Below are positions 1,586 to 42,045 of a stretch of 64,000 nt of DNA, piece after piece. Location: the sequence record GQ981382; one strand, given 5' to 3'. The notes below the pieces were generated by a model that was not told the DNA's origin, searched no databases, and saw only the letters and a program-made list of their open reading frames with translations. This DNA is from Shigella phage SP18. The number at the start of each line of letters is the position of its first letter. Positions within the stretch are counted from its first letter, which is position 1. Position numbers and translations under genes: made by a program.

Positions 1586-1931
1586 TACGAACCTCCTTAA
1601 TAAATTCTTCGGCGCATTTAATTTTGTGCTCTTCTTGTAGGGAAACACATTTTTGTTCCCACTCTTTAACTCGTCCACGATATCCTTTATTCATATGATT
1701 TTGATGCCACACATTTATCAATATCATACACAGGACCGTAATAAAAGGAGCTGCAATTACTAGCGTCCAGGCGACTCCAACACTAATGATATTCATATCC
1801 CCACAAAGCACCATCATTATAACCCCAACGATGCACATGGACAGAGCCCCAAATGGAGGCATAAGGTCTTTATCAATCTTGTCCGCGTACACAAATTTTT
1901 CTGGTTTACTTGGCAGATATAACGTTCGCAT
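1572..1931 (-). CDS. small membrane protein with two predicted transmembrane helices, similar architecture to the downstream gene
   Basis: ATG at complement 1929-1931 with AAAGGGG RBS; two hydrophobic segments; 14-nt overlap with next gene. Confidence 0.5.
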   Translation of the reverse strand: MRTLYLPSKPEKFVYADKIDKDLMPPFGALSMCIVGVIMMVLCGDMNIISVGVAWTLVIAAPFITVLCMILINVWHQNHMNKGYRGRVKEWEQKCVSLQEEHKIKCAEEFIKEVRNGTA

Positions 1932-2460
1932 TTTGAACCCCTTTAGCATATTCACGACATTCAGCAATAAAACGATTAAGCTTACGTTTCCGTTTACGAC
2001 TCTCTAATGTGTACTCAGCCGCCAAATCAAGAAGCTCATCTTTATCATAATTTTTAATATCAGTATAAGTTGGACGACGGTCAACCATTCCAAAGTGGTC
2101 ACCATTTTCTAACATCAAATAACATACCAAATGGTCATCATCATCCGCATTAATAAGTTGTTTATAATCGCTAGGGTCGTTTAAAGCATATACTGAATAA
2201 CTCAGCCCAGCGAATTCCACTCGTTGAATACCCAGATTTACGTCAATAATTTCCAGGGCATCTGTGAAAGAAAGGTCTTCAGCTAAAGCAAAAATAAAAG
2301 GCAATTTTGTAGTATCACCGCGGCTAGTTGTTCTTCTTAAGAAATCATTGGAATAACCCAAGTCACCGCGGATTCTATAAAGAACTGTGTTAGTTTCAGT
2401 GGCAAGACCACTACCGCCAAACCAGTCTACATTTGATAGAAGGTCAGTATATAAGCTCAT
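1906..2460 (-). CDS. hypothetical protein
   Basis: ATG at 2458-2460 with GGAGAGGAG RBS; 184 aa; preceded by GGGGGC-AAA-GCCCCC hairpin. Confidence 0.55.
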   Translation of the reverse strand: MSLYTDLLSNVDWFGGSGLATETNTVLYRIRGDLGYSNDFLRRTTSRGDTTKLPFIFALAEDLSFTDALEIIDVNLGIQRVEFAGLSYSVYALNDPSDYKQLINADDDDHLVCYLMLENGDHFGMVDRRPTYTDIKNYDKDELLDLAAEYTLESRKRKRKLNRFIAECREYAKGVQNANVISAK

Positions 2461-3169: not shown

Positions 3170-3475
3170 TTAGATTTTGTTTTCCTGCACACCATAATAA
3201 AGTTCATCAGACACAATATCCAGGATGCGGCGAACATATTCATCATGGTATTGACAGTCAAAATCAAATGTAACAGTAGTTTCCGCTTCACGAGTGAATT
3301 TAACTTGCACATTCAGGTGATTAACAACGTTAGTTAATTTATCAGTAAAGAACTCTTTTGCTACCGCCTGTTGGACTTGCACTTTGAACTTGGTGTTACG
3401 AATCATATTTTCAGCAGATGCGAAATTACCAGTTTTATCAAAGTCAACAAGCGCCATGTTGATGATGAATTTCAT
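3170..3475 (-). CDS. hypothetical protein
   Basis: 101-aa ORF; GGAGAATAAA-ATG RBS; early promoter repeat upstream. Confidence 0.55.
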   Translation of the reverse strand: MKFIINMALVDFDKTGNFASAENMIRNTKFKVQVQQAVAKEFFTDKLTNVVNHLNVQVKFTREAETTVTFDFDCQYHDEYVRRILDIVSDELYYGVQENKI

Positions 3476-3496: not shown

Positions 3497-3545
3497 GTGT
3501 AACTCAGTATGGAATCATTATGCCTTAAAGCAGGGGGCTTGTATA
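3497..3545 (-). promoter_or_regulatory. sigma70-like early promoter repeat (-35 TATACA, 17 bp, -10 CATAAT, conserved leader GATTCCATACTGAGTTACAC); -35 lies in loop of the upstream terminator hairpin
   Basis: One of three near-identical 26-nt copies (3497, 4543, 41998). Confidence 0.5.
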
Positions 3546-3557
3546 CCCCCTTTTTGA
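3531..3557. terminator. hairpin GGGGG-CTTGTATA-CCCCC followed by TTTTT (plus side); overlaps early promoter -35
   Basis: GC stem plus T-run. Confidence 0.4.
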
Positions 3558-3558
3558 A

Positions 3559-4002
3559 TTAAATTTCAAATTCTTTGCGGAAGTTGGAAGCATAAGACTG
3601 AACTGATGCTTTGTTGAATCCAAACTCACGCACAATCATATCAATAACAGCCCTACGAGCGGCACCATTAGACATATTGACAGTTTTGAACATATCATAG
3701 CATAAATCTTTGTTGCTCATACCGGAGCGTTTAGGTGTCTTACGTTCAGTTTTTGGTTCAGTCTTAGGAGTAGGTTTAACTTCTGGTTTAACCTGTCCAT
3801 CATTCAGACCTTTAAAAATTTTACCTGCCAGAGTTGCCAGTTTAGCAGCTTCGCCACGAGTGATACCAAATACTGCCGGGTTAAATGAAATACCTTCAGC
3901 TGTCAGACGTTTAAAGAACATACGTGCGGCGGATTGTGCTTCAGCTTCAGAAGAGTTGTTTAATGCCAGTTTAACATACTTAACCAGTTTTGAAGTTTTC
4001 AT
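3559..4002 (-). CDS. hypothetical protein sharing a C-terminal domain (AARRAxID...VQSYASNFRK) with the upstream paralog
   Basis: Internal ATG at 4000-4002; C-terminal 45 aa alignable with gene 4086-4511. Confidence 0.55.
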   Translation of the reverse strand: MKTSKLVKYVKLALNNSSEAEAQSAARMFFKRLTAEGISFNPAVFGITRGEAAKLATLAGKIFKGLNDGQVKPEVKPTPKTEPKTERKTPKRSGMSNKDLCYDMFKTVNMSNGAARRAVIDMIVREFGFNKASVQSYASNFRKEFEI

Positions 4003-4037
4003 TTTATTATCCCGTTTGTTTATTTGGTAACTCAATA

Positions 4038-4073
4038 TGGGATAATTATACACTATCCCACCTGGAAGTAAAA
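4038..4073 (-). promoter_or_regulatory. early promoter variant with -10 TATAAT in loop of inverted repeat TGGGATA/TATCCCA; -35 TTTTAC
   Basis: Related to the TATCCCAT promoter family; upstream of gene 3559-4002. Confidence 0.45.
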
Positions 4074-4085
4074 CACTTTTCTCAA

Positions 4086-4511
4086 TTATTTTTGAGCTTT
4101 GCGGAAGTTGGATGCATATGACTGAACAACAGTCTTTTTGATATCATGGGTGGTAACCAGAACATCAATCAGAGCGCGACGAGCTGCATTATCATTCATA
4201 TCAATTTCTGAAAATGCCTGGAAGCAAATGTCACGAGCGTTACCAGATTTGGACTGGATTTTTTCTTCTTTAACTTCTTCAATTGGGAATTCAATCATTT
4301 CAGCTTGGATTAATTCAATGATAGATTCTTTTGACTGTTTGGTGTTTACCTTCAGTTCAGAATTAAGGGACTTGGCGATGGCAACAATCTGGGTTGAAGT
4401 CAGATGAATAAGTGCATCTTCACGAATGCAGATTTCACATACTTCGTCAGCAACCATTTTGTTGGTGATGCGGGTAACAGAGAATGCAGAGGTCAGGGTC
4501 AGGAAGTTCAT
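4086..4511 (-). CDS. hypothetical protein, paralog of 3559-4002
   Basis: ATG at 4509-4511 with GGAG RBS; C-terminal ...NAARRALIDVLV...VVQSYASNFRK. Confidence 0.55.
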   Translation of the reverse strand: MNFLTLTSAFSVTRITNKMVADEVCEICIREDALIHLTSTQIVAIAKSLNSELKVNTKQSKESIIELIQAEMIEFPIEEVKEEKIQSKSGNARDICFQAFSEIDMNDNAARRALIDVLVTTHDIKKTVVQSYASNFRKAQK

Positions 4512-4542
4512 TTTATTTCTCCAAAGTTTTGTTTGATTCAGT

Positions 4543-4591
4543 GTGTAACTCAGTATGGAATCATTATGCACCCGGTCAATTCGGATGTACA
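4543..4591 (-). promoter_or_regulatory. sigma70-like early promoter repeat (-35 TGTACA, 17 bp, -10 CATAAT, conserved leader)
   Basis: Immediately downstream of minus-strand terminator and upstream of gene 4086-4511. Confidence 0.5.
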
Positions 4592-4630
4592 CTACTTTTT
4601 GAAGAAAATTTCAAATTTATTCGGGGTATA

Positions 4631-4659
4631 AAAAAAGCCCCAACCTTTCGGAAGGGGCT
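4631..4659 (-). terminator. rho-independent terminator (AGCCCC-loop-GGGGCT then U7 on minus strand) downstream of tRNA region
   Basis: Stem 4636-4641/4654-4659, A-run 4631-4636 on plus. Confidence 0.6.
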
Positions 4660-4660
4660 A

Positions 4661-4860
4661 TACCTTGTCGGGGTTCCACCTGCAAGGCAAGTGTTTGTAC
4701 GAAACGCCGGGATTCGAACCCGGTTATTAAGCAGTTGACGCTACTCAATATTTTTAAAAGGCCATATCTCGACCATATCCGAACGTTCCGTCAAAAACGC
4801 TACTCGGCTTACGGCAAAGATATTTCCTCGAATCGATAATTCGGTGCGCCGTTTCAGCTG
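4661..4860 (-). ncRNA. candidate stable RNA with a perfect tRNA-like T-arm (CCGGG-TTCGAAT-CCCGG) that does not fold as a canonical tRNA
   Basis: No ORF over about 300 nt between tRNA cluster and terminator; T-arm at complement 4704-4720; possible acceptor-like pairing CGGAACG/CGTTTCG. Confidence 0.3.
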
Positions 4861-4960
4861 TGAGATAAGGGACTTTAAGAGGTCAACTCATGTACGCCTT
4901 AAAGTCGGGTCTTATTCAGGGAACTTCAGTCCGACGACTTACCGGTAGCGACCCGGTTTC

Positions 4961-5200
4961 TCATTCAATTGTAATAGCTAATTTGACTTTAACAACCTTA
5001 TAATTGGAATCAAGGTCATTGAATTCCATAAAATTTGTTGCTAATCTGCGAGTCGGGAAACTTAGATATTTATTATGCTCAGGTGGAGCAGTTAATGCAA
5101 ACCATGGGACTTGTTTATCATTTTCATCAAACTCATCAAAGCTATAAACCAGCTCGTTGCTGGTTATATCCATAACTGCATATGATTCACTAATAACCAT
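4961..5200 (-). CDS. hypothetical protein
   Basis: ORF track 79 aa immediately downstream of tRNA cluster. Confidence 0.45.
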   Translation of the reverse strand: MVISESYAVMDITSNELVYSFDEFDENDKQVPWFALTAPPEHNKYLSFPTRRLATNFMEFNDLDSNYKVVKVKLAITIE

Positions 5201-5215
5201 AATATCCTCAGTAAT

Positions 5216-5291
5216 TGGTCGAGACAGTAGGGATCGAACCTACGACCTAGGACTTAGAAGGTCCTTGCTCTTCCTTCTGAGCTATGCCTCG
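5216..5291 (-). tRNA. tRNA-Arg (anticodon UCU), CCA encoded
   Basis: Manual cloverleaf: acceptor CGAGGCA/TGTCTCG, D-stem GCTC/GAGC, anticodon stem AGGAC/GTCCT with loop CTTCTAA, T-arm GTAGG-TTCGATC-CCTAC. Confidence 0.8.
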
Positions 5292-5298
5292 TAATTTG

Positions 5299-5370
5299 CG
5301 GACACACATGGATTCGAACCATGGACCAATTGATTAACAGTCAACTGCTCTACCACTGAGCTATGCATCC
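5299..5370 (-). tRNA. tRNA-Asn (anticodon GUU), CCA not encoded
   Basis: Manual cloverleaf: D-arm GCTC-AGTGGTA-GAGC, anticodon loop CTGTTAA, T-arm CATGG-TTCGAAT-CCATG, acceptor with two G-U pairs. Confidence 0.75.
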
Positions 5371-5374
5371 AAAT

Positions 5375-5449
5375 TGGTGGCCCTTGCTGGTTTCGATCCA
5401 GCTACCTATCAGTTATGAGCTGACAGCTCTCCCATTGAGCTAAAGGGCC
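5375..5449 (-). tRNA. tRNA with CAU anticodon (Met or Ile2), CCA encoded
   Basis: Manual cloverleaf: acceptor GGCCCTT/AAGGGCC, D-arm GCTC-AATGGGA-GAGC, anticodon loop CTCATAA, T-arm GCTGG-ATCGAAA-CCAGC. Confidence 0.75.
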
Positions 5450-5542
5450 AATTCTATTATGAAAGGCTCTTTGAGGGAAGAACCTTTGGTAATAGAGGGT
5501 ACTTATTAATAATAACACATAACTCTTAAAGCATATTACTTG

Positions 5543-5944
5543 TTAACCTTCATCAACAATAGTATGTGTATTGGCATTGACAATCTGCCACCAGTCAAAA
5601 CGGTTGGAACCATAACAAGGCTTCTTCTCGTTTTCTTTAATGATAACGCGCAGTTCATCTTCAGTCGCAGCCTTTGCGATTAAGTCAGCATAACCGCCAC
5701 GAGGATAATAGCTATCACCCGCGAACAAAAGGAAATTTACCTTCCCAGAAGGGATATAGGCTTCCTTTGGATACTTGTTTCCTGCATGGTCTACCACTTC
5801 AATATAACGATAAGGAATATCAGTATTTTCAATCCATTGCCACGCCGCGGCAGGAGAATCAAAAGCATCTACACCTAAACGGTTATCTTCATCTTTAGAC
5901 GGGTTATTTTCATAATCCGCATATACATAATATTCAACGTTCAT
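5543..5944 (-). CDS. hypothetical protein
   Basis: ORF track 133 aa; TAATG overlap with upstream small ORF. Confidence 0.5.
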   Translation of the reverse strand: MNVEYYVYADYENNPSKDEDNRLGVDAFDSPAAAWQWIENTDIPYRYIEVVDHAGNKYPKEAYIPSGKVNFLLFAGDSYYPRGGYADLIAKAATEDELRVIIKENEKKPCYGSNRFDWWQIVNANTHTIVDEG

Positions 5945-6063
5945 TATTCACCTTTAGAGATTTTATCCATAACGAAAGAGATTGAACCAATTAAAAATGC
6001 AACTACTAAAGAGATTATATTCTCAGAAGTTGAAAGCATATTCAACATAAAGCCAGCAAACAT
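5944..6063 (-). CDS. small hydrophobic peptide (39 aa), possibly the 3' part of a gene split by a frameshift from the 21-aa ORF at 6065-6130
   Basis: ATG at 6061-6063 without RBS; upstream tiny ORF 6065-6130 has a strong GAGGAG RBS and ends in a T-run. Confidence 0.3.
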   Translation of the reverse strand: MFAGFMLNMLSTSENIISLVVAFLIGSISFVMDKISKGE

Positions 6064-6150
6064 GCTAAAACCAAAAAGCGGTAACAGCAACAAGGGCAGT
6101 AACATTTCTAATTAATTCGCAACGTTTCATTTTATTCTCCTCAGTAGTTG

Positions 6151-6187
6151 ATGGGATAATCATACTACAGTTATCCCATCACGTACA
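6151..6187 (-). promoter_or_regulatory. early promoter variant: -35 TGTACG, 17 bp, -10 TATGAT inside inverted repeat GATGGGATAA/TTATCCCATC
   Basis: Near-duplicate of element at 6484-6521. Confidence 0.45.
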
Positions 6188-6466
6188 CTAAATTTTTGTA
6201 TATTGTCCAGCTTTAACTTTTTTCAGTTCACGAGGGCTTACCGCGTAAGTGAATGGAGCATTCCAGGAAGAACTGACTTTGTAACCTTTAGTCAACATCA
6301 TTGCTGAAACTTTCTTGTTATCAGGACCGTTTTCGCCTTTAACAAGAAACAACTCAAATGCGCCACCATCAACCGGTTTGGCCTTAACCATCAGATATCC
6401 TTTCAGGTCTTCCAGCATATCCGGGTGACTAATTGATTCGTTAATAAATTCTTGATAAGTTTTCAT
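6188..6466 (-). CDS. internal protein (IP) family member with capsid-targeting N-terminus MKTYQEFINE
   Basis: N-terminal 10 aa matches the T4 IP capsid targeting sequence; promoter with TATAAT in hairpin loop upstream. Confidence 0.7.
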   Translation of the reverse strand: MKTYQEFINESISHPDMLEDLKGYLMVKAKPVDGGAFELFLVKGENGPDNKKVSAMMLTKGYKVSSSWNAPFTYAVSPRELKKVKAGQYTKI

Positions 6467-6483
6467 TAGTAGCTCCAGTAGTT

Positions 6484-6521
6484 GATGGGATAATTATACT
6501 GCAACTATCCCATCACGTACA
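6484..6521 (-). promoter_or_regulatory. early promoter variant: -35 TGTACG, 17 bp, -10 TATAAT inside inverted repeat GATGGGATA/TATCCCATC, upstream of IP gene 6188-6466
   Basis: -10 within hairpin loop; followed by GGAG RBS. Confidence 0.5.
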
Positions 6522-6529
6522 TTACATTT

Positions 6530-6812
6530 TTACATTTTTGAACCACGAATTACACCATAAGCGGCGAAGTCGTCAGAAATATCTTTAGGAGAGTTCTTAC
6601 CAGTTTCAATGAAGGCAATGCTTGACTTCTGACTAAAAGAGGTAATTTTGTTATAGTTGGAGTCAAGGAAGGTATAACCATTTTTACGCAGCTGGTCAAA
6701 GTCTTCAGCGTCGCCTTTACCTTTGAAGTCAACCCATTTGTAGGTGTTTTTCTTCTGAAGACCCAGAGGCCAGGTAATTGTTTTCTACCAAAAATTCATG
6801 AAAAGTTTGCAT
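6530..6812 (-). pseudogene. internal protein-like gene interrupted by an apparent +1 frameshift in a 5-nt homopolymer (plus-strand T run 6747-6751)
   Basis: ATG at 6810-6812 gives MQTFHEFLVENNYLASGSSEE then TGA; the remaining 66 codons are open in the adjacent frame and lack any start codon. Confidence 0.5.
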
Positions 6813-6820
6813 TTGAAATC

Positions 6821-7093
6821 CTATTTTAGATAAATTGCGTATTTTTTATAACCAGCCGTCTCATGACGGAGACCCTTGTCATTGGCAAAACGCTCAATGT
6901 TATTAATTTGGTTCTGGTCAAGTTCTGAAATGTCAAACGCGAAAAAGTTGCGTTTGTTACCAATTGTTATATGGTCAGTCAAGTCAATGCTATACAAGTG
7001 ATTGATATTGTCAATCATAGCTTTGACTGCTTTACTAATTTTTACTTCTTCGTTCAGTTGGGACTCGTTGAAAAATTCATTGAAAGTTTTCAT
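6821..7093 (-). CDS. internal protein (IP) family member, N-terminus MKTFNEFFNE
   Basis: ORF track 90 aa; CTS-like N-terminus. Confidence 0.65.
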   Translation of the reverse strand: MKTFNEFFNESQLNEEVKISKAVKAMIDNINHLYSIDLTDHITIGNKRNFFAFDISELDQNQINNIERFANDKGLRHETAGYKKYAIYLK

Positions 7094-7101
7094 AAGAAAC
7101 C

Positions 7102-7434
7102 TTATTTATAAAGTTTTGCCAGTTCTTTACGTCCACGAGCAGACATAATAAATTGTTCATCGCCAATTTTAAAATAAGCCATACCACCGTCAACAGCGAT
7201 ACCAATTTCTTTAGTACCTTCTTTGCCTTTCCACTTGCCACCAGATTTCAGGACAGCTTCAACTGCAGCTTTGGAATATTTGGACGTTTGAAAACGTTCA
7301 TTACCAATCTGAAAGAAAACACCATCTGCATTTTTGGTTAAACCAAATTTCAGAGAGCCTTCACTATCATCAATTGATTTGGTCTCATTGATGGCGGATT
7401 CGGCTAAAAACTCGTTGTAAGTTTTGACGCTCAT
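7102..7434 (-). CDS. internal protein (IP) family member, N-terminus MSVKTYNEFLAE
   Basis: Internal ATG 11 codons into the track ORF; CTS-like N-terminus with L-x-E cleavage context. Confidence 0.6.
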   Translation of the reverse strand: MSVKTYNEFLAESAINETKSIDDSEGSLKFGLTKNADGVFFQIGNERFQTSKYSKAAVEAVLKSGGKWKGKEGTKEIGIAVDGGMAYFKIGDEQFIMSARGRKELAKLYK

Positions 7435-7494
7435 TTTAACTCCGTTTGTTCGTTGGTGTAGGAACATATTACTGCACCTACACTCATTTGTACA

Positions 7495-41695: not shown

Positions 41696-41975
41696 ATACC
41701 ATACCATTTAAATGAACTTCTACTCGGCGCTTGATAAGGTCTCTGAAGTTAACATTGTTTTCTTGAAGTTTCAACCAGTTACCATTTTTATCTTTAGTGT
41801 GAGTAGAATAATTACCATTCCACCAGAAATCAGTGTCATATGCTAAGTTTTCATATTTTTTAACTAGTTTGTTCAGAGCATTACCATTAACACCATTTGG
41901 GTATTTGTTAACCAAGGCAATAACTTCAATTTCCAGATTTTTAAAGGTGTTCAGAAGGAAAGTTGCTTTGTTCAT
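41694..41975 (-). CDS. hypothetical protein between genes 23 and 24
   Basis: 93-aa ORF with GGAG RBS and early promoter repeat upstream. Confidence 0.55.
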   Translation of the reverse strand: MNKATFLLNTFKNLEIEVIALVNKYPNGVNGNALNKLVKKYENLAYDTDFWWNGNYSTHTKDKNGNWLKLQENNVNFRDLIKRRVEVHLNGMV

Positions 41976-41997: not shown

Positions 41998-42045
41998 GTT
42001 AACTCAGTATGGAATCATTATGTCTTATCTTAATCTGGTTGTAAA
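41998..42045 (-). promoter_or_regulatory. sigma70-like early promoter repeat (-35 TTTACA, 17 bp, -10 CATAAT, conserved leader)
   Basis: Upstream of gene 41694-41975. Confidence 0.5.

What the first reader, a model, noticed from the sequence alone, without database searches (positions are those of the whole stretch)
3497..6521. Early-promoter repeat family: conserved 26-nt block and variants with the -10 hexamer inside a hairpin loop
Three near-identical copies (3497-3522, 4543-4568, 41998-42022, all minus) read CATAAT-GATTCCATACTGAGTTAC with a T(G/T/A)TACA -35 exactly 17 bp upstream. Three further copies (4038-4073, 6151-6187, 6484-6521) keep the -35 and TATCCCAT but place the -10 in the loop of an inverted repeat (GATGGGATA / TATCCCATC). 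At 3531-3557 the -35 sits in the loop of the preceding terminator hairpin. This recurring promoter-in-hairpin arrangement is not explained by simple sigma70 promoters.
Basis: partly seen in the sequence, partly recalled or inferred. Interest (0 to 1): 0.5.

Follow-up and report, generated by a model that had tools for sequence, protein, structure and literature searches.

The report
T4-type early promoter cassettes with hairpins
The repeats are the early promoters of a T4-like (VR7-group) coliphage, packaged with a hairpin and a shared leader into small reusable cassettes of a kind already described ("PeSLs"); related phages shuffle small genes by recombining between them.

Summary
The 24-nt block occurs three times (0 expected by chance). 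Three promoters have TGGGATA…TATCCCA arms around the -10, and a fourth at 7494-7450, with unrelated arms, was missed.

The window comes from a VR7-like T4-type phage, in the ipI / trna.4 / tRNA / rnaC region. Each element is a sigma70 early promoter: an A-rich tract, GT(G/T/A)TAC, a 16-17 nt spacer, YATAAT, a predicted start at the A of CCA, and a leader with GGAG and ATG. Each carries one hairpin. It is either a true terminator upstream or, where the promoter abuts the previous stop codon, a hairpin wrapped around the -35 or the -10.

This is the published "promoter-early stem-loop" (PeSL) cassette of T4-type phages.

New detail from this work:
- The block is the -10, discriminator and first ~12 transcribed nt of a family with 9-14 copies per genome in VR7-like phages, also present in Morganella phage MP1.
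- The arms around the -10 change in a compensatory way between phages, are enriched about tenfold at early promoters, and lack a U-tract.
- The copy at 4072 is a chimera left by a one-gene indel whose crossover lies inside the block.

What the hairpin does is inferred, not shown.

The parts
3499..3545 (-). Block-type early promoter. -35 TATACA 3545-3540, 17-nt spacer, -10 CATAAT 3522-3517, block 3522-3499, predicted +1 at A3510. Leader with GGAG, ATG at 3475 (101-aa ORF, phrog_7474).
   Evidence: the +1 is inferred from the usual 7-nt distance after the -10
3532..3551 (-). G/C hairpin (AGGGGGU / GCCCCCU) with the -35 hexamer in its loop, starting 8 nt after the stop codon (3561-3559) of the upstream ORF. 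No U-run on the sense strand.
   Evidence: -13.5 kcal/mol, z = -2.0
4026..4072 (-). Chimeric promoter. -35 TTTACT 4072-4067, 16-nt spacer, -10 TATAAT 4050-4045, arms 4061-4054 / 4044-4037, then leader ATTGAGTTACC. The 5' half is IR-type and the 3' half is the block-type leader. ATG at 4002 (147-aa ORF).
4545..4591 (-). Block-type early promoter. -35 TGTACA 4591-4586, -10 CATAAT 4568-4563, block 4568-4545, predicted +1 at A4556. ATG at 4511 (141-aa ORF).
4630..4659 (-). Canonical intrinsic terminator (AGCCCC...GGGGCU plus U7) after the rnaC-like RNA. It is the separate hairpin of the 4591 cassette.
   Evidence: homologous to the T4 rnaC end
6141..6187 (-). IR-type early promoter of the trna.4 homologue. 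-35 TGTACG 6187-6182 abuts the ipI-like stop codon (6190-6188). -10 TATGAT 6164-6159, arms 6180-6172 / 6158-6150, leader AUCAACUACUGAGGAG, ATG at 6130.
   Evidence: I12
6475..6521 (-). IR-type early promoter of the ipI-like internal-protein gene (6466-6188). -35 TGTACG 6521-6516, -10 TATAAT 6498-6493, arms 6514-6506 / 6492-6484.
   Evidence: I6
6142..6538 (-). The internal-protein ORF flanked by a 63-nt direct repeat (6142-6204 and 6476-6538, 86% identical) formed by the two IR-type promoters, i.e. one cassette.
   Evidence: D3
7450..7494 (-). A further promoter of the same design with unrelated arms. -35 TGTACA 7494-7489 abuts the upstream stop codon. -10 TAATAT 7471-7466, arms GTGTAGG 7483-7477 / CCTACAC 7462-7456. 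ATG at 7434 (IP-like ORF, MSVKTYNEF...).
41999..42045 (-). Block-type early promoter. -35 TTTACA 42045-42040, -10 CATAAT 42022-42017, block with 1 mismatch. ATG at 41975 (93-aa ORF, phrog_6003).

Best explanation
These are the early (host sigma70) promoter cassettes of a VR7-like T4-type phage, of the kind published as PeSLs.

Each cassette reads, on the minus strand:
- one hairpin;
- an A-rich UP-like tract;
- a -35 GT(G/T/A)TAC;
- a 16-17 nt spacer of free sequence;
- a -10 YATAAT;
- a C-rich discriminator, with initiation predicted at the A of CCA;
- a conserved leader, then GGAG and ATG of a small early ORF.

The 24-26 nt block is the -10, the discriminator and the first ~12 transcribed bases of one cassette sub-family.

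The hairpin belongs to the transcript arriving from upstream, not to the promoter's own transcript.
- Where there is intergenic room, it is a normal terminator (stem plus U-run) just upstream of the A-tract.
- Where the promoter abuts the preceding stop codon, it is folded over the -35 (3551-3532) or the -10 (4072, 6187, 6521, 7494). Its 5' arm then lies in the sequence-free spacer and its 3' arm lies on the discriminator and +1.

My inference is that it forms only in read-through RNA. There it would act as a weak attenuator and/or a 3'-end barrier that insulates neighbouring early transcription units.

Because the cassettes are near-identical direct repeats, they also serve as homology patches for recombination that inserts, deletes and swaps the small ORFs between them.

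Status of each step:
- Shown by sequence: promoter anatomy, dispersed copies, covariation of the arms, one indel with a crossover inside the block.
- Inferred: initiation site, promoter activity, and what the hairpin does.
For: Identity of the phage and region. The region is 95-99% identical to VR7-group T4-like phages and about 40-42% G+C. Gene order matches T4 ipI / trna.4 / trna.3 / tRNAs / rnaD-rnaC.

Promoter anatomy. The homologous T4 positions carry GTTTAC-N17-TAnnAT promoters. This fits the T4-type early consensus, including C at -3 to -1 (PMC1524935; PMC2988021).

Dispersed family.
- 37 phage records carry the block, with 9-14 places per complete genome, all VR7-like apart from 2 Morganella MP1 records (3 places), one partial record (3 places) and 2 weaker single-place hits.
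- The block stands in front of 18 different small ORFs.
- Most copies are preceded by GGACCC-UUCG-GGGUCC plus a U-run and AAAAAGTA.
- The MP1 depositors annotate the same unit as a terminator plus a promoter.

The hairpin is selected.
- 31% of 36 census promoters fold at or below -14 kcal/mol, against 3.3% of random 52-mers from the same strand.
- In a swap test on 15 hairpin-bearing promoters I picked by hand, native upstream/downstream halves average -17.1 kcal/mol against -7.8 when swapped, and 0 of 20,000 permutations reach the native value.
- Orthologous trna.4/IP promoters keep pairing through double changes: GATGGGATA / TATCCCATC versus GATAGGGTA / TACCCTATC. On the alignment, 94% of cells are paired, 3 pairs show compensatory change, 0 of 500 shuffles match this, and slid controls give 30-60%.
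- motB orthologues show GGGACC/GGTCCC, GGGAGC/GCTCCC and GGGGTC/GACCCC.

Placement. All IR-type promoters start 0-13 nt after the upstream stop codon, whereas the 4591 copy has its own terminator.

Recombination. VR20 and VR25 carry an extra ORF between an IR-type and a block-type promoter. The window has one chimeric promoter whose junction lies inside CCATA(C/T)TGAGTTA. A 63-nt direct repeat flanks the internal-protein ORF.

Literature. PeSLs are defined with stem-loops between the -35 and -10 or overlapping either box, with promoter and terminator activity and mini-circle formation shown for RB49/phi1 (PMC2839356). PeSLs in T4/PST use TTTACW-N17-TAYWAT (PMC4122927).
Against: - No transcript 5' or 3' ends are available for this phage, so promoter activity and the +1 are predictions.
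- The hairpins around the -10 are followed by 0-4 T in 8 nt, so they are not canonical intrinsic terminators. The only PeSL stem-loop tested as a terminator was a G/C-rich RB49 one. The attenuator/barrier role is therefore my weakest step.
- Preference for the sense strand (G.U tolerated) is only suggestive: 18 of 21 hairpins are more stable on the sense strand, but so are 60% of random segments.
- The 2014 paper describes the T4/PST stem-loops as lying 'just upstream of the promoter', not around the -10. That placement in T-even-like phages rests on my own analysis and on the RB49 description.
- The near-invariance of +1 to +11 exceeds what a promoter is known to need. Part of it is ascertainment, because the loci were fetched by exact match to the block.
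Confidence: 0.8

Rival explanations
1. Structure-dependent initiation. The inverted repeat extrudes as a cruciform or hairpin in supercoiled DNA and presents the -10 single-stranded, so promoter activity or its shut-off depends on DNA structure.
For: The -10 lies in the loop in four window promoters and in many T4 ones. The arms covary, which any structural model predicts. The mechanism of T4 early-promoter shut-off is still described as not understood (PMC2988021; PMC3014915).
Against: Hairpin position relative to the promoter is not fixed. It can lie upstream, over the -35, in the spacer, around the -10, or reach the SD (PMC2839356). Most block-type copies have no repeat around the -10 yet keep the same -35 and -10. 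G.U pairs in the stems would be A.C mismatches on the other strand of a cruciform. Loops are 9-18 nt and stems A/T-rich, which is poor for extrusion. From general knowledge, T4-type phages use host sigma70 holoenzyme, not an N4-type virion polymerase.
Confidence: 0.06
2. Transcript-origin switch. The hairpin exists so that read-through RNA and promoter-proximal RNA of the same gene behave differently, for example in translation or decay of the downstream cistron. This would parallel the known T4 cases where a promoter inside a hairpin frees a sequestered ribosome-binding site (e, soc, 49, I-TevI; from my own knowledge).
For: The predicted start site lies between or at the end of the arms, so only read-through RNA can fold. 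In T4 several early promoters have a 3' arm covering the SD: regB (62797), motB.2 (8218), denV (65413), alc (136336), alt.-3 (123093), 30.8 (130310) and ndd.4 (166807), at -12 to -24 kcal/mol.
Against: In the window's copies the 3' arm ends at about +3 and GGAG starts at about +11 to +30, so the SD is not sequestered.
Confidence: 0.12
3. The block's transcribed part (AUACUGAGUUA) is itself a functional signal. Candidates are a downstream promoter region that tunes escape, a sigma70 -10-like element (CATACT at -1 to +5) causing promoter-proximal pausing, or a target for a phage regulator. On this view it is not merely homology kept by recombination. This is not exclusive of the best explanation.
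For: Positions -12 to +11 are as conserved as the -10 hexamer and more so than the -35 across 18 paralogues, while the 17-nt spacer is free. Among the promoters detected by -35/-10 pattern in the held loci (many fetched by the block itself), mismatch counts to the block are bimodal, 0-3 or 7 and above. The block is kept in another genus, Morganella phage MP1. T4 itself has no such common leader.
Against: There is ascertainment bias, because the loci were fetched by exact block match. Gene conversion between cassettes could homogenise it. The TTGACC-N16-CATACT overlapping promoter occurs in only 3-4 of 18 paralogues. No partner sequence or fold was found: the only fold is -2.4 kcal/mol, z = -0.25, and there is no antisense copy in the window.
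Confidence: 0.15
4. Palindromic operator. The two arms are half-sites for a dimeric DNA-binding regulator of early promoters.
For: Arms of 8-9 bp lie about two helical turns apart and centred on the -10 in the three TGGGATA copies.
Against: Arm sequences differ from promoter to promoter and covary pairwise rather than matching a common half-site. Loop length varies from 5 to 18 nt.
Confidence: 0.02

Closest known systems
PeSL (promoter-early stem-loop) cassettes of T4-type phages (Arbiol et al. 2010, PMC2839356; Comeau et al. 2014, PMC4122927)
   Same: AT-rich tract, sigma70-like -35/N17/-10, a stem-loop placed upstream of, between or over the boxes, and an SD plus start codon at the 3' end. 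Many dispersed copies in front of small ORFs of unknown function. Indels and replacements between close relatives have junctions in the cassettes.
   Different: This sub-family has -35 GTGTACA, -10 CATAAT and an invariant transcribed block ATACTGAGTTA that I did not find described in the papers I read. Here the stem-loops around the -10 are A/T-rich, lack a U-run and show compensatory change. Promoter and terminator activity and mini-circles were shown only for RB49/phi1.
Conserved untranslated blocks flanking internal-protein (IP) genes of T-even phages (Repoila et al. 1994, as cited in PMC2839356 and PMC4122927)
   Same: The 6521 and 6187 copies flank an ORF that starts with the IP leader MKTYQEFI. 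They form a 63-nt direct repeat carrying transcription and translation signals.
   Different: I could not read the 1994 paper. The block-type copies lie outside the IP locus.
Classical T4 early promoters (Liebig and Rueger 1989; Wilkens and Rueger; Miller et al. 2003; review PMC2988021)
   Same: UP-like A-tract, GTTTAC-type -35, 17-nt spacer, TAnnAT -10, C-rich -3 to -1, and location before early genes.
   Different: G instead of T at the third position of GTTTAC in most copies, C at the first -10 position, and a shared transcribed block that T4 lacks.
T4 genes whose ribosome-binding site is sequestered in a hairpin that contains an internal promoter (e, soc, 49, I-TevI; own knowledge)
   Same: A promoter inside a hairpin, so that only transcripts from upstream can fold.
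   Different: Those cases use late or middle promoters, and the 3' arm covers the SD or AUG. In the window's copies the SD is free.
Phage N4 early promoters (hairpin recognised by the virion RNA polymerase; own knowledge)
   Same: A promoter associated with a DNA hairpin.
   Different: N4 hairpins have 5-7 bp stems with a 3-nt loop of fixed sequence and need the N4 virion polymerase. Here the loops are 9-18 nt, the arm sequences are free and sigma70 hexamers are intact.

Membership tests
PeSL cassette | sigma70-like early promoter (-35, about 17 nt, -10) with an AT-rich tract upstream | tested here: met
   All eight window copies. Consensus aAAAAgt.GTgTACA-N17-cATAAT.
PeSL cassette | Stem-loop within or next to the promoter, in one of five published positions | tested here: met
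   Over the -10 at 4072, 6187, 6521 and 7494. Over the -35 at 3551-3532. Upstream terminator at 4659-4630 and in most VR20/25/26 copies.
PeSL cassette | SD and start codon of a downstream ORF at the 3' end, usually a small ORF of unknown function | tested here: met
   GGAG or GGGA plus ATG 26-51 nt after the -10. All downstream ORFs fall in PHROGs of unknown function.
PeSL cassette | Many dispersed copies per genome | tested here: met
   9-14 places per VR7-like genome and 18 different downstream ORFs.
PeSL cassette | Indels or replacements between close relatives with junctions in the cassette | tested here: met
   One-ORF indel, window versus VR20/VR25, with the crossover in CCATA(C/T)TGAGTTA. 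VR20 has two IP genes upstream of trna.4 where the window has one.
PeSL cassette | Promoter and terminator activity in vivo; mini-circle formation | not testable with these tools
   Shown only for RB49/phi1 elements (PMC2839356).
Rho-independent terminator | Stable stem-loop immediately followed by a U-run on the transcribed strand | tested here: not met
   For the hairpins around the -10 and at 3551-3532, the tails are AACUACUG, AUUGAGUU, CAACGAAC and UGCUUUAA, and the scan lists none of them on the minus strand. It is met only by 4659-4630 and by the GGACCC...GGGUCC-U6 elements.
Hairpin-sequestered ribosome-binding site with internal promoter (T4 e/soc/49 type) | The 3' arm pairs with the SD or start codon | tested here: not met
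   In the window the 3' arms end at about +3 and the SD is unpaired. It is met by sequence for several T4 early promoters.
N4-type hairpin promoter | Short stem, 3-nt loop, conserved bases, dedicated virion RNA polymerase | tested here: not met
   Loops are 9-18 nt and arm sequences vary. Polymerase content was not examined; the use of host RNAP by T4-type phages is established knowledge.

The most novel reading that the evidence does not exclude
The hairpins that enclose the -10 and start site are neither terminators nor by-products of compaction. They would be a selected, sense-strand RNA (or strand-specific DNA) device common to T4-type early promoters. Together with the invariant transcribed block of the VR7/MP1 lineage, they would control how early units are insulated or switched off. 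That would bear on the still unexplained rapid shut-off of T4 early promoters.
Probability: 0.1. Interest if true: 0.6.

Novelty: new member of a known kind. Interest (0 to 1): 0.28.

Why it matters
As it stands the finding is ordinary for a T4 specialist. It mainly gives correct promoter, terminator and cassette annotation for VR7-like phages, and a clean example of cassette-mediated gene gain or loss.

Two points are worth a small experiment:
- The stems around the -10 covary yet have no U-run, so the published 'terminator' label may not describe what they do.
- The first ~12 transcribed bases are conserved as strongly as the -10 across two phage genera. This suggests information in the initially transcribed region of very strong phage promoters.

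Tried and rejected
- Rfam gathering scan of the whole window found only the three tRNAs and no family for the leader or the hairpins.
- A search of a 16-kb T4 segment (62-78 kb) for the block with up to 3 mismatches found none, and T4 early promoters share no common leader.
- The T4 GenBank records hold no promoter features, so experimentally mapped start sites could not be transferred. Miller et al. 2003 is not held. A literature search for genome-wide T4 start-site maps gave nothing usable.
- The G.U versus A.C test with ungapped stems was inconclusive: 33 versus 29 promoters improved, close to background. The MFE version was only suggestive.
- A fold of the block leader itself is negligible (-2.4 kcal/mol, z = -0.25).
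- A palindromic operator was rejected because the arms differ between promoters.
- An overlapping promoter TTGACC-N16-CATACT is present in only a sub-group.
- The mini-ORF ATGATTCCATACTGA starts upstream of the predicted +1 and has no SD, so I treat it as coincidence.

Full report
**What is in the sequence**

On the minus strand, CATAATGATTCCATACTGAGTTAC occurs at 3522-3499 and 4568-4545 (exact) and at 42022-41999 (one mismatch). None of 100 dinucleotide-preserving shuffles produced a match. Each copy has a T(A/G/T)TACA hexamer exactly 17 bp upstream.

TGGGATA-N(9-13)-TATCCCA occurs three times, at 4038-4060, 6152-6178 and 6486-6512, again with none expected. In each case the two arms bracket a TATAAT or TATGAT hexamer that lies 16-17 bp downstream of TTTACT or TGTACG.

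As RNA these segments fold at -18.3, -15.9 and -14.7 kcal/mol (z = -5.3, -3.8, -2.8). The repeat finder returns the same families (D1, D3, I6, I12).

It reads TGTACA, N17, TAATAT, with unrelated arms GTGTAGG / CCTACAC (-14.8 kcal/mol). At 3551-3532 a G/C hairpin does hold the -35 TATACA in its loop, but its sense-strand tail is UGCUUUAA. The T-run is on the other strand.

**Where this is**

- The region is 95-99% identical to T4-like coliphages of the VR7 group: vB_EcoM_VR7/VR20/VR25/VR26, phage 212 and others.
- G+C is about 40-42%.
- Gene order on the minus strand matches T4 ipI / trna.4 / trna.3 / tRNA genes / rnaD-rnaC / small early ORFs.
- The ORF 6466-6188 starts MKTYQEFI, the leader of T4 internal proteins.
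- All ORFs downstream of the elements fall in PHROG families of unknown function.

**What the elements are**

Every copy has the anatomy of a T4-type early promoter:
- an A-rich tract;
- GT(G/T/A)TAC;
- a 16-17 nt spacer;
- YATAAT;
- a C-rich discriminator;
- then GGAG or GGGA and an ATG, the ATG 26-51 nt after the -10.

The homologous T4 intergenic regions (ipI, trna.4, e.8, e.7, e.6) carry GTTTAC-N17-TAnnAT at the same places. Published descriptions of T4-type early promoters include the UP-like A-tract and a preference for C at -3 to -1 (PMC2988021; PMC1524935).

With the usual 7-nt distance, the start is the A of CCA: 3510, 4038, 4556, 6152, 6486, 7459. That is an inference, because no transcript data exist for this phage.

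**The block is part of a larger, dispersed cassette**

The block plus a few flanking bases (31-nt query) is found in 37 phage records. Thirty-two are VR7-like, all but one partial record being complete genomes with 9-14 places each. The rest are 2 Morganella phage MP1 records with 3 places each and 2 weaker single-place hits.

Three VR genomes in IMG/VR carry 8-9 exact copies each.

Across 18 different downstream ORFs the consensus is aAAAAgt.GTgTACA, N17, cATAAT-GATtCC-ATACTGAGTTA, then an A-rich stretch, GGAG and ATG.
- The 17-nt spacer is free.
- Positions -12 to +11 are nearly invariant.

Most copies are preceded by a canonical terminator, GGACCC-UUCG-GGGUCC plus a U-run, directly abutting the A-tract. 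In the window the 4591 copy has the rnaC terminator (4659-4630) upstream.

Morganella phage MP1, from a different genus, has the same unit. Its depositors annotated it as 'terminator' plus 'promoter' (PMC5384007).

**This is a known kind of element**

Arbiol et al. 2010 defined PeSLs (promoter-early stem-loops) in RB49/phi1 as an AT-rich tract, sigma70-type boxes, a stem-loop, and an SD plus start codon.
- They state that the stem-loop can lie between the -35 and -10, overlap either box, lie upstream, or lie just before the start site.
- They showed promoter activity for one such cassette and terminator activity for the stem-loop of another.
- They detected circular excision products.

Comeau et al. 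2014 extended PeSLs to T4/PST (TTTACW-N17-TAYWAT) and nt-1/KVP40. They linked them to the conserved blocks flanking internal-protein genes noted by Repoila et al. 1994.

The window's elements meet every sequence-level criterion of that family.

**Is the inverted repeat around the -10 more than shared ancestry?** Yes.

1. Enrichment.
   - I ran a census by promoter pattern alone: 36 candidates in about 116 kb of T4 plus the window.
   - 31% fold at or below -14 kcal/mol and 28% at or below -16. The figures for random 52-mers of the same strand are 3.3% and 1.4%.
   - A cruder stem score gives 31% versus 2%.
2. Promoter-specific arms.
   - I hand-picked 15 hairpin-bearing promoters and exchanged their downstream halves.
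   - The mean energy rises from -17.1 to -7.8 kcal/mol, and none of 20,000 permutations reaches the native value.
   - Because the set was selected for hairpins, this shows specificity of the arms, not prevalence.
3. Compensatory change at orthologous promoters.
   - Upstream of trna.4 and IP genes the arms are GATGGGATA / TATCCCATC (window, VR), GATAGGGTA / TACCCTATC, GATGGGGTA / TACCCTATC (one G.U), ATAGGGT / ACCCTAT (T4), GGGCT / AGCCC and TGATGAGGTA / TACCTCATCA.
   - On a 10-sequence alignment, 94% of cells pair and three of nine pairs change on both sides.
   - 0 of 500 shuffles reach the observed pairing or covariation score. Slid controls pair at 30-60%.
   - motB-promoter orthologues show GGGACC/GGTCCC, GGGAGC/GCTCCC and GGGGTC/GACCCC.

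The sample is small and the sequences are related, so these numbers are support, not proof.

**What the hairpin probably does**

- Its 5' arm lies upstream of the predicted start, so it can form only in RNA arriving from upstream promoters.
- Its position relative to the promoter varies. It can be upstream, over the -35, in the spacer, around the -10, or reaching the SD.
- All IR-type promoters in the window begin 0-13 nt after the preceding stop codon. The 4591 block-type copy, which has more intergenic room, has a separate terminator.

I therefore read the hairpin as the 3' element of the upstream unit, overlapped with the next promoter for lack of space. It uses the sequence-free spacer for one arm and the C-rich discriminator for the other.

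It is not a canonical terminator, because the tails have 0-4 T in 8 nt. A role as weak attenuator and/or barrier against 3' exonucleases is my inference.

Sense-strand preference (G.U pairs) is suggestive only.

In T4 a second class of such hairpins has a 3' arm covering the SD (regB, motB.2, denV, alc, alt.-3, 30.8, ndd.4). That would silence read-through copies, as known for e, soc and 49. The window's copies do not sequester the SD.

**Recombination**

VR20 and VR25 carry, after the 141-aa ORF:
- an IR-type promoter;
- an extra ORF of about 105 aa (MFNAPAWH...);
- a block-type promoter;
- the 147-aa ORF.

The window lacks the extra ORF and has a single chimeric promoter at 4072-4026. The switch point lies inside the shared CCATA(C/T)TGAGTTA. 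This is the product expected from recombination between two cassettes.

The ipI-like ORF is flanked by a 63-nt, 86%-identical direct repeat. VR20 has two IP genes upstream of trna.4 where the window has one. One IMG/VR phage shows a tandem duplication of the -10 plus 3' arm.

**What remains open**

The invariance of +1 to +11, also kept in MP1, is stronger than promoter recognition requires. Possible causes are a downstream promoter region affecting escape, a -10-like CATACT at -1 to +5, or homogenisation by recombination.

My sample is biased towards exact matches, so I cannot separate these. No fold, antisense partner or Rfam family was found for the block.

**Verdict**

The interpretation as early promoters is supported. 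The 'unexplained promoter-in-hairpin' is the published PeSL architecture. I file it as a new sub-family of a known kind, of modest interest.

Noticed in passing
window 4700-4960 (-): Homologue of the T4 stable RNAs rnaD/rnaC (species 2 and 1) downstream of the tRNA cluster. Its 3' end and terminator are nearly identical to T4's. The Rfam gathering scan has no family for it.
   Followed up: partly
window 5944-6130 (-): The trna.4 homologue appears split. ATG 6130 runs to a stop at 6065 after 21 codons, and a second frame (6105-5944, 53 aa) carries the rest. This is a frameshift, a sequencing error or a real truncation.
   Followed up: no
window 6530-6784 (-): An 84-codon open frame ending ...YGVIRGSKM*, directly upstream of the 6521 promoter, has no ATG/GTG/TTG start giving 30 aa or more. 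It looks like a 5'-truncated remnant in the internal-protein locus.
   Followed up: partly
window 3559-4511 (-), plus L003 in VR26: The 141-aa and 147-aa ORFs and a 71-aa VR ORF share a C-terminal ...VQSYASNFRK domain (phrog_9997, 18416, 17275). They form a small paralogous early-protein family, each member behind its own cassette.
   Followed up: partly
window 4552-4579 (-): A second promoter-like site, TTGACC-N16-CATACT, overlaps the 4591 promoter and is offset by about one helical turn. Its -10 lies inside the block. It is present in only 3-4 of 18 block paralogues.
   Followed up: partly
window 3550-3572 and 4595-4617: A 23-nt direct repeat (91% identical) upstream of two block promoters, AATTTGAAATTT..TTCAAAAAG. 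It contains its own A/T hairpin (TTTGAA / TTCAAA) in the UP-element region.
   Followed up: no
L087 about 1920-2003 (-) (IMG/VR 2706796299): Tandem duplication of 'gatactattacctcatcaa' (-10 plus 3' arm) upstream of an internal-protein gene. This is the kind of slippage product mentioned for degraded PeSLs.
   Followed up: no
L121, L132, L150, L172, L198 (metagenomic viral contigs): Contigs outside the identified VR-like genomes also carry AAAAGTA-GTGTACA-N17-TATAAT promoters. Their spacer (TCCTAG) is complementary to the downstream SD region (CTAGGAG). The promoter-inside-hairpin design may therefore be widespread beyond coliphages.
   Followed up: no
window 6821-7434 (-): Two further internal-protein-like ORFs (MSVKTYNEFLAE..., MKTFNEFFNES...) lie upstream of the ipI-like gene. 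Together they form a multi-gene IP locus served by the 7494 promoter.
   Followed up: partly
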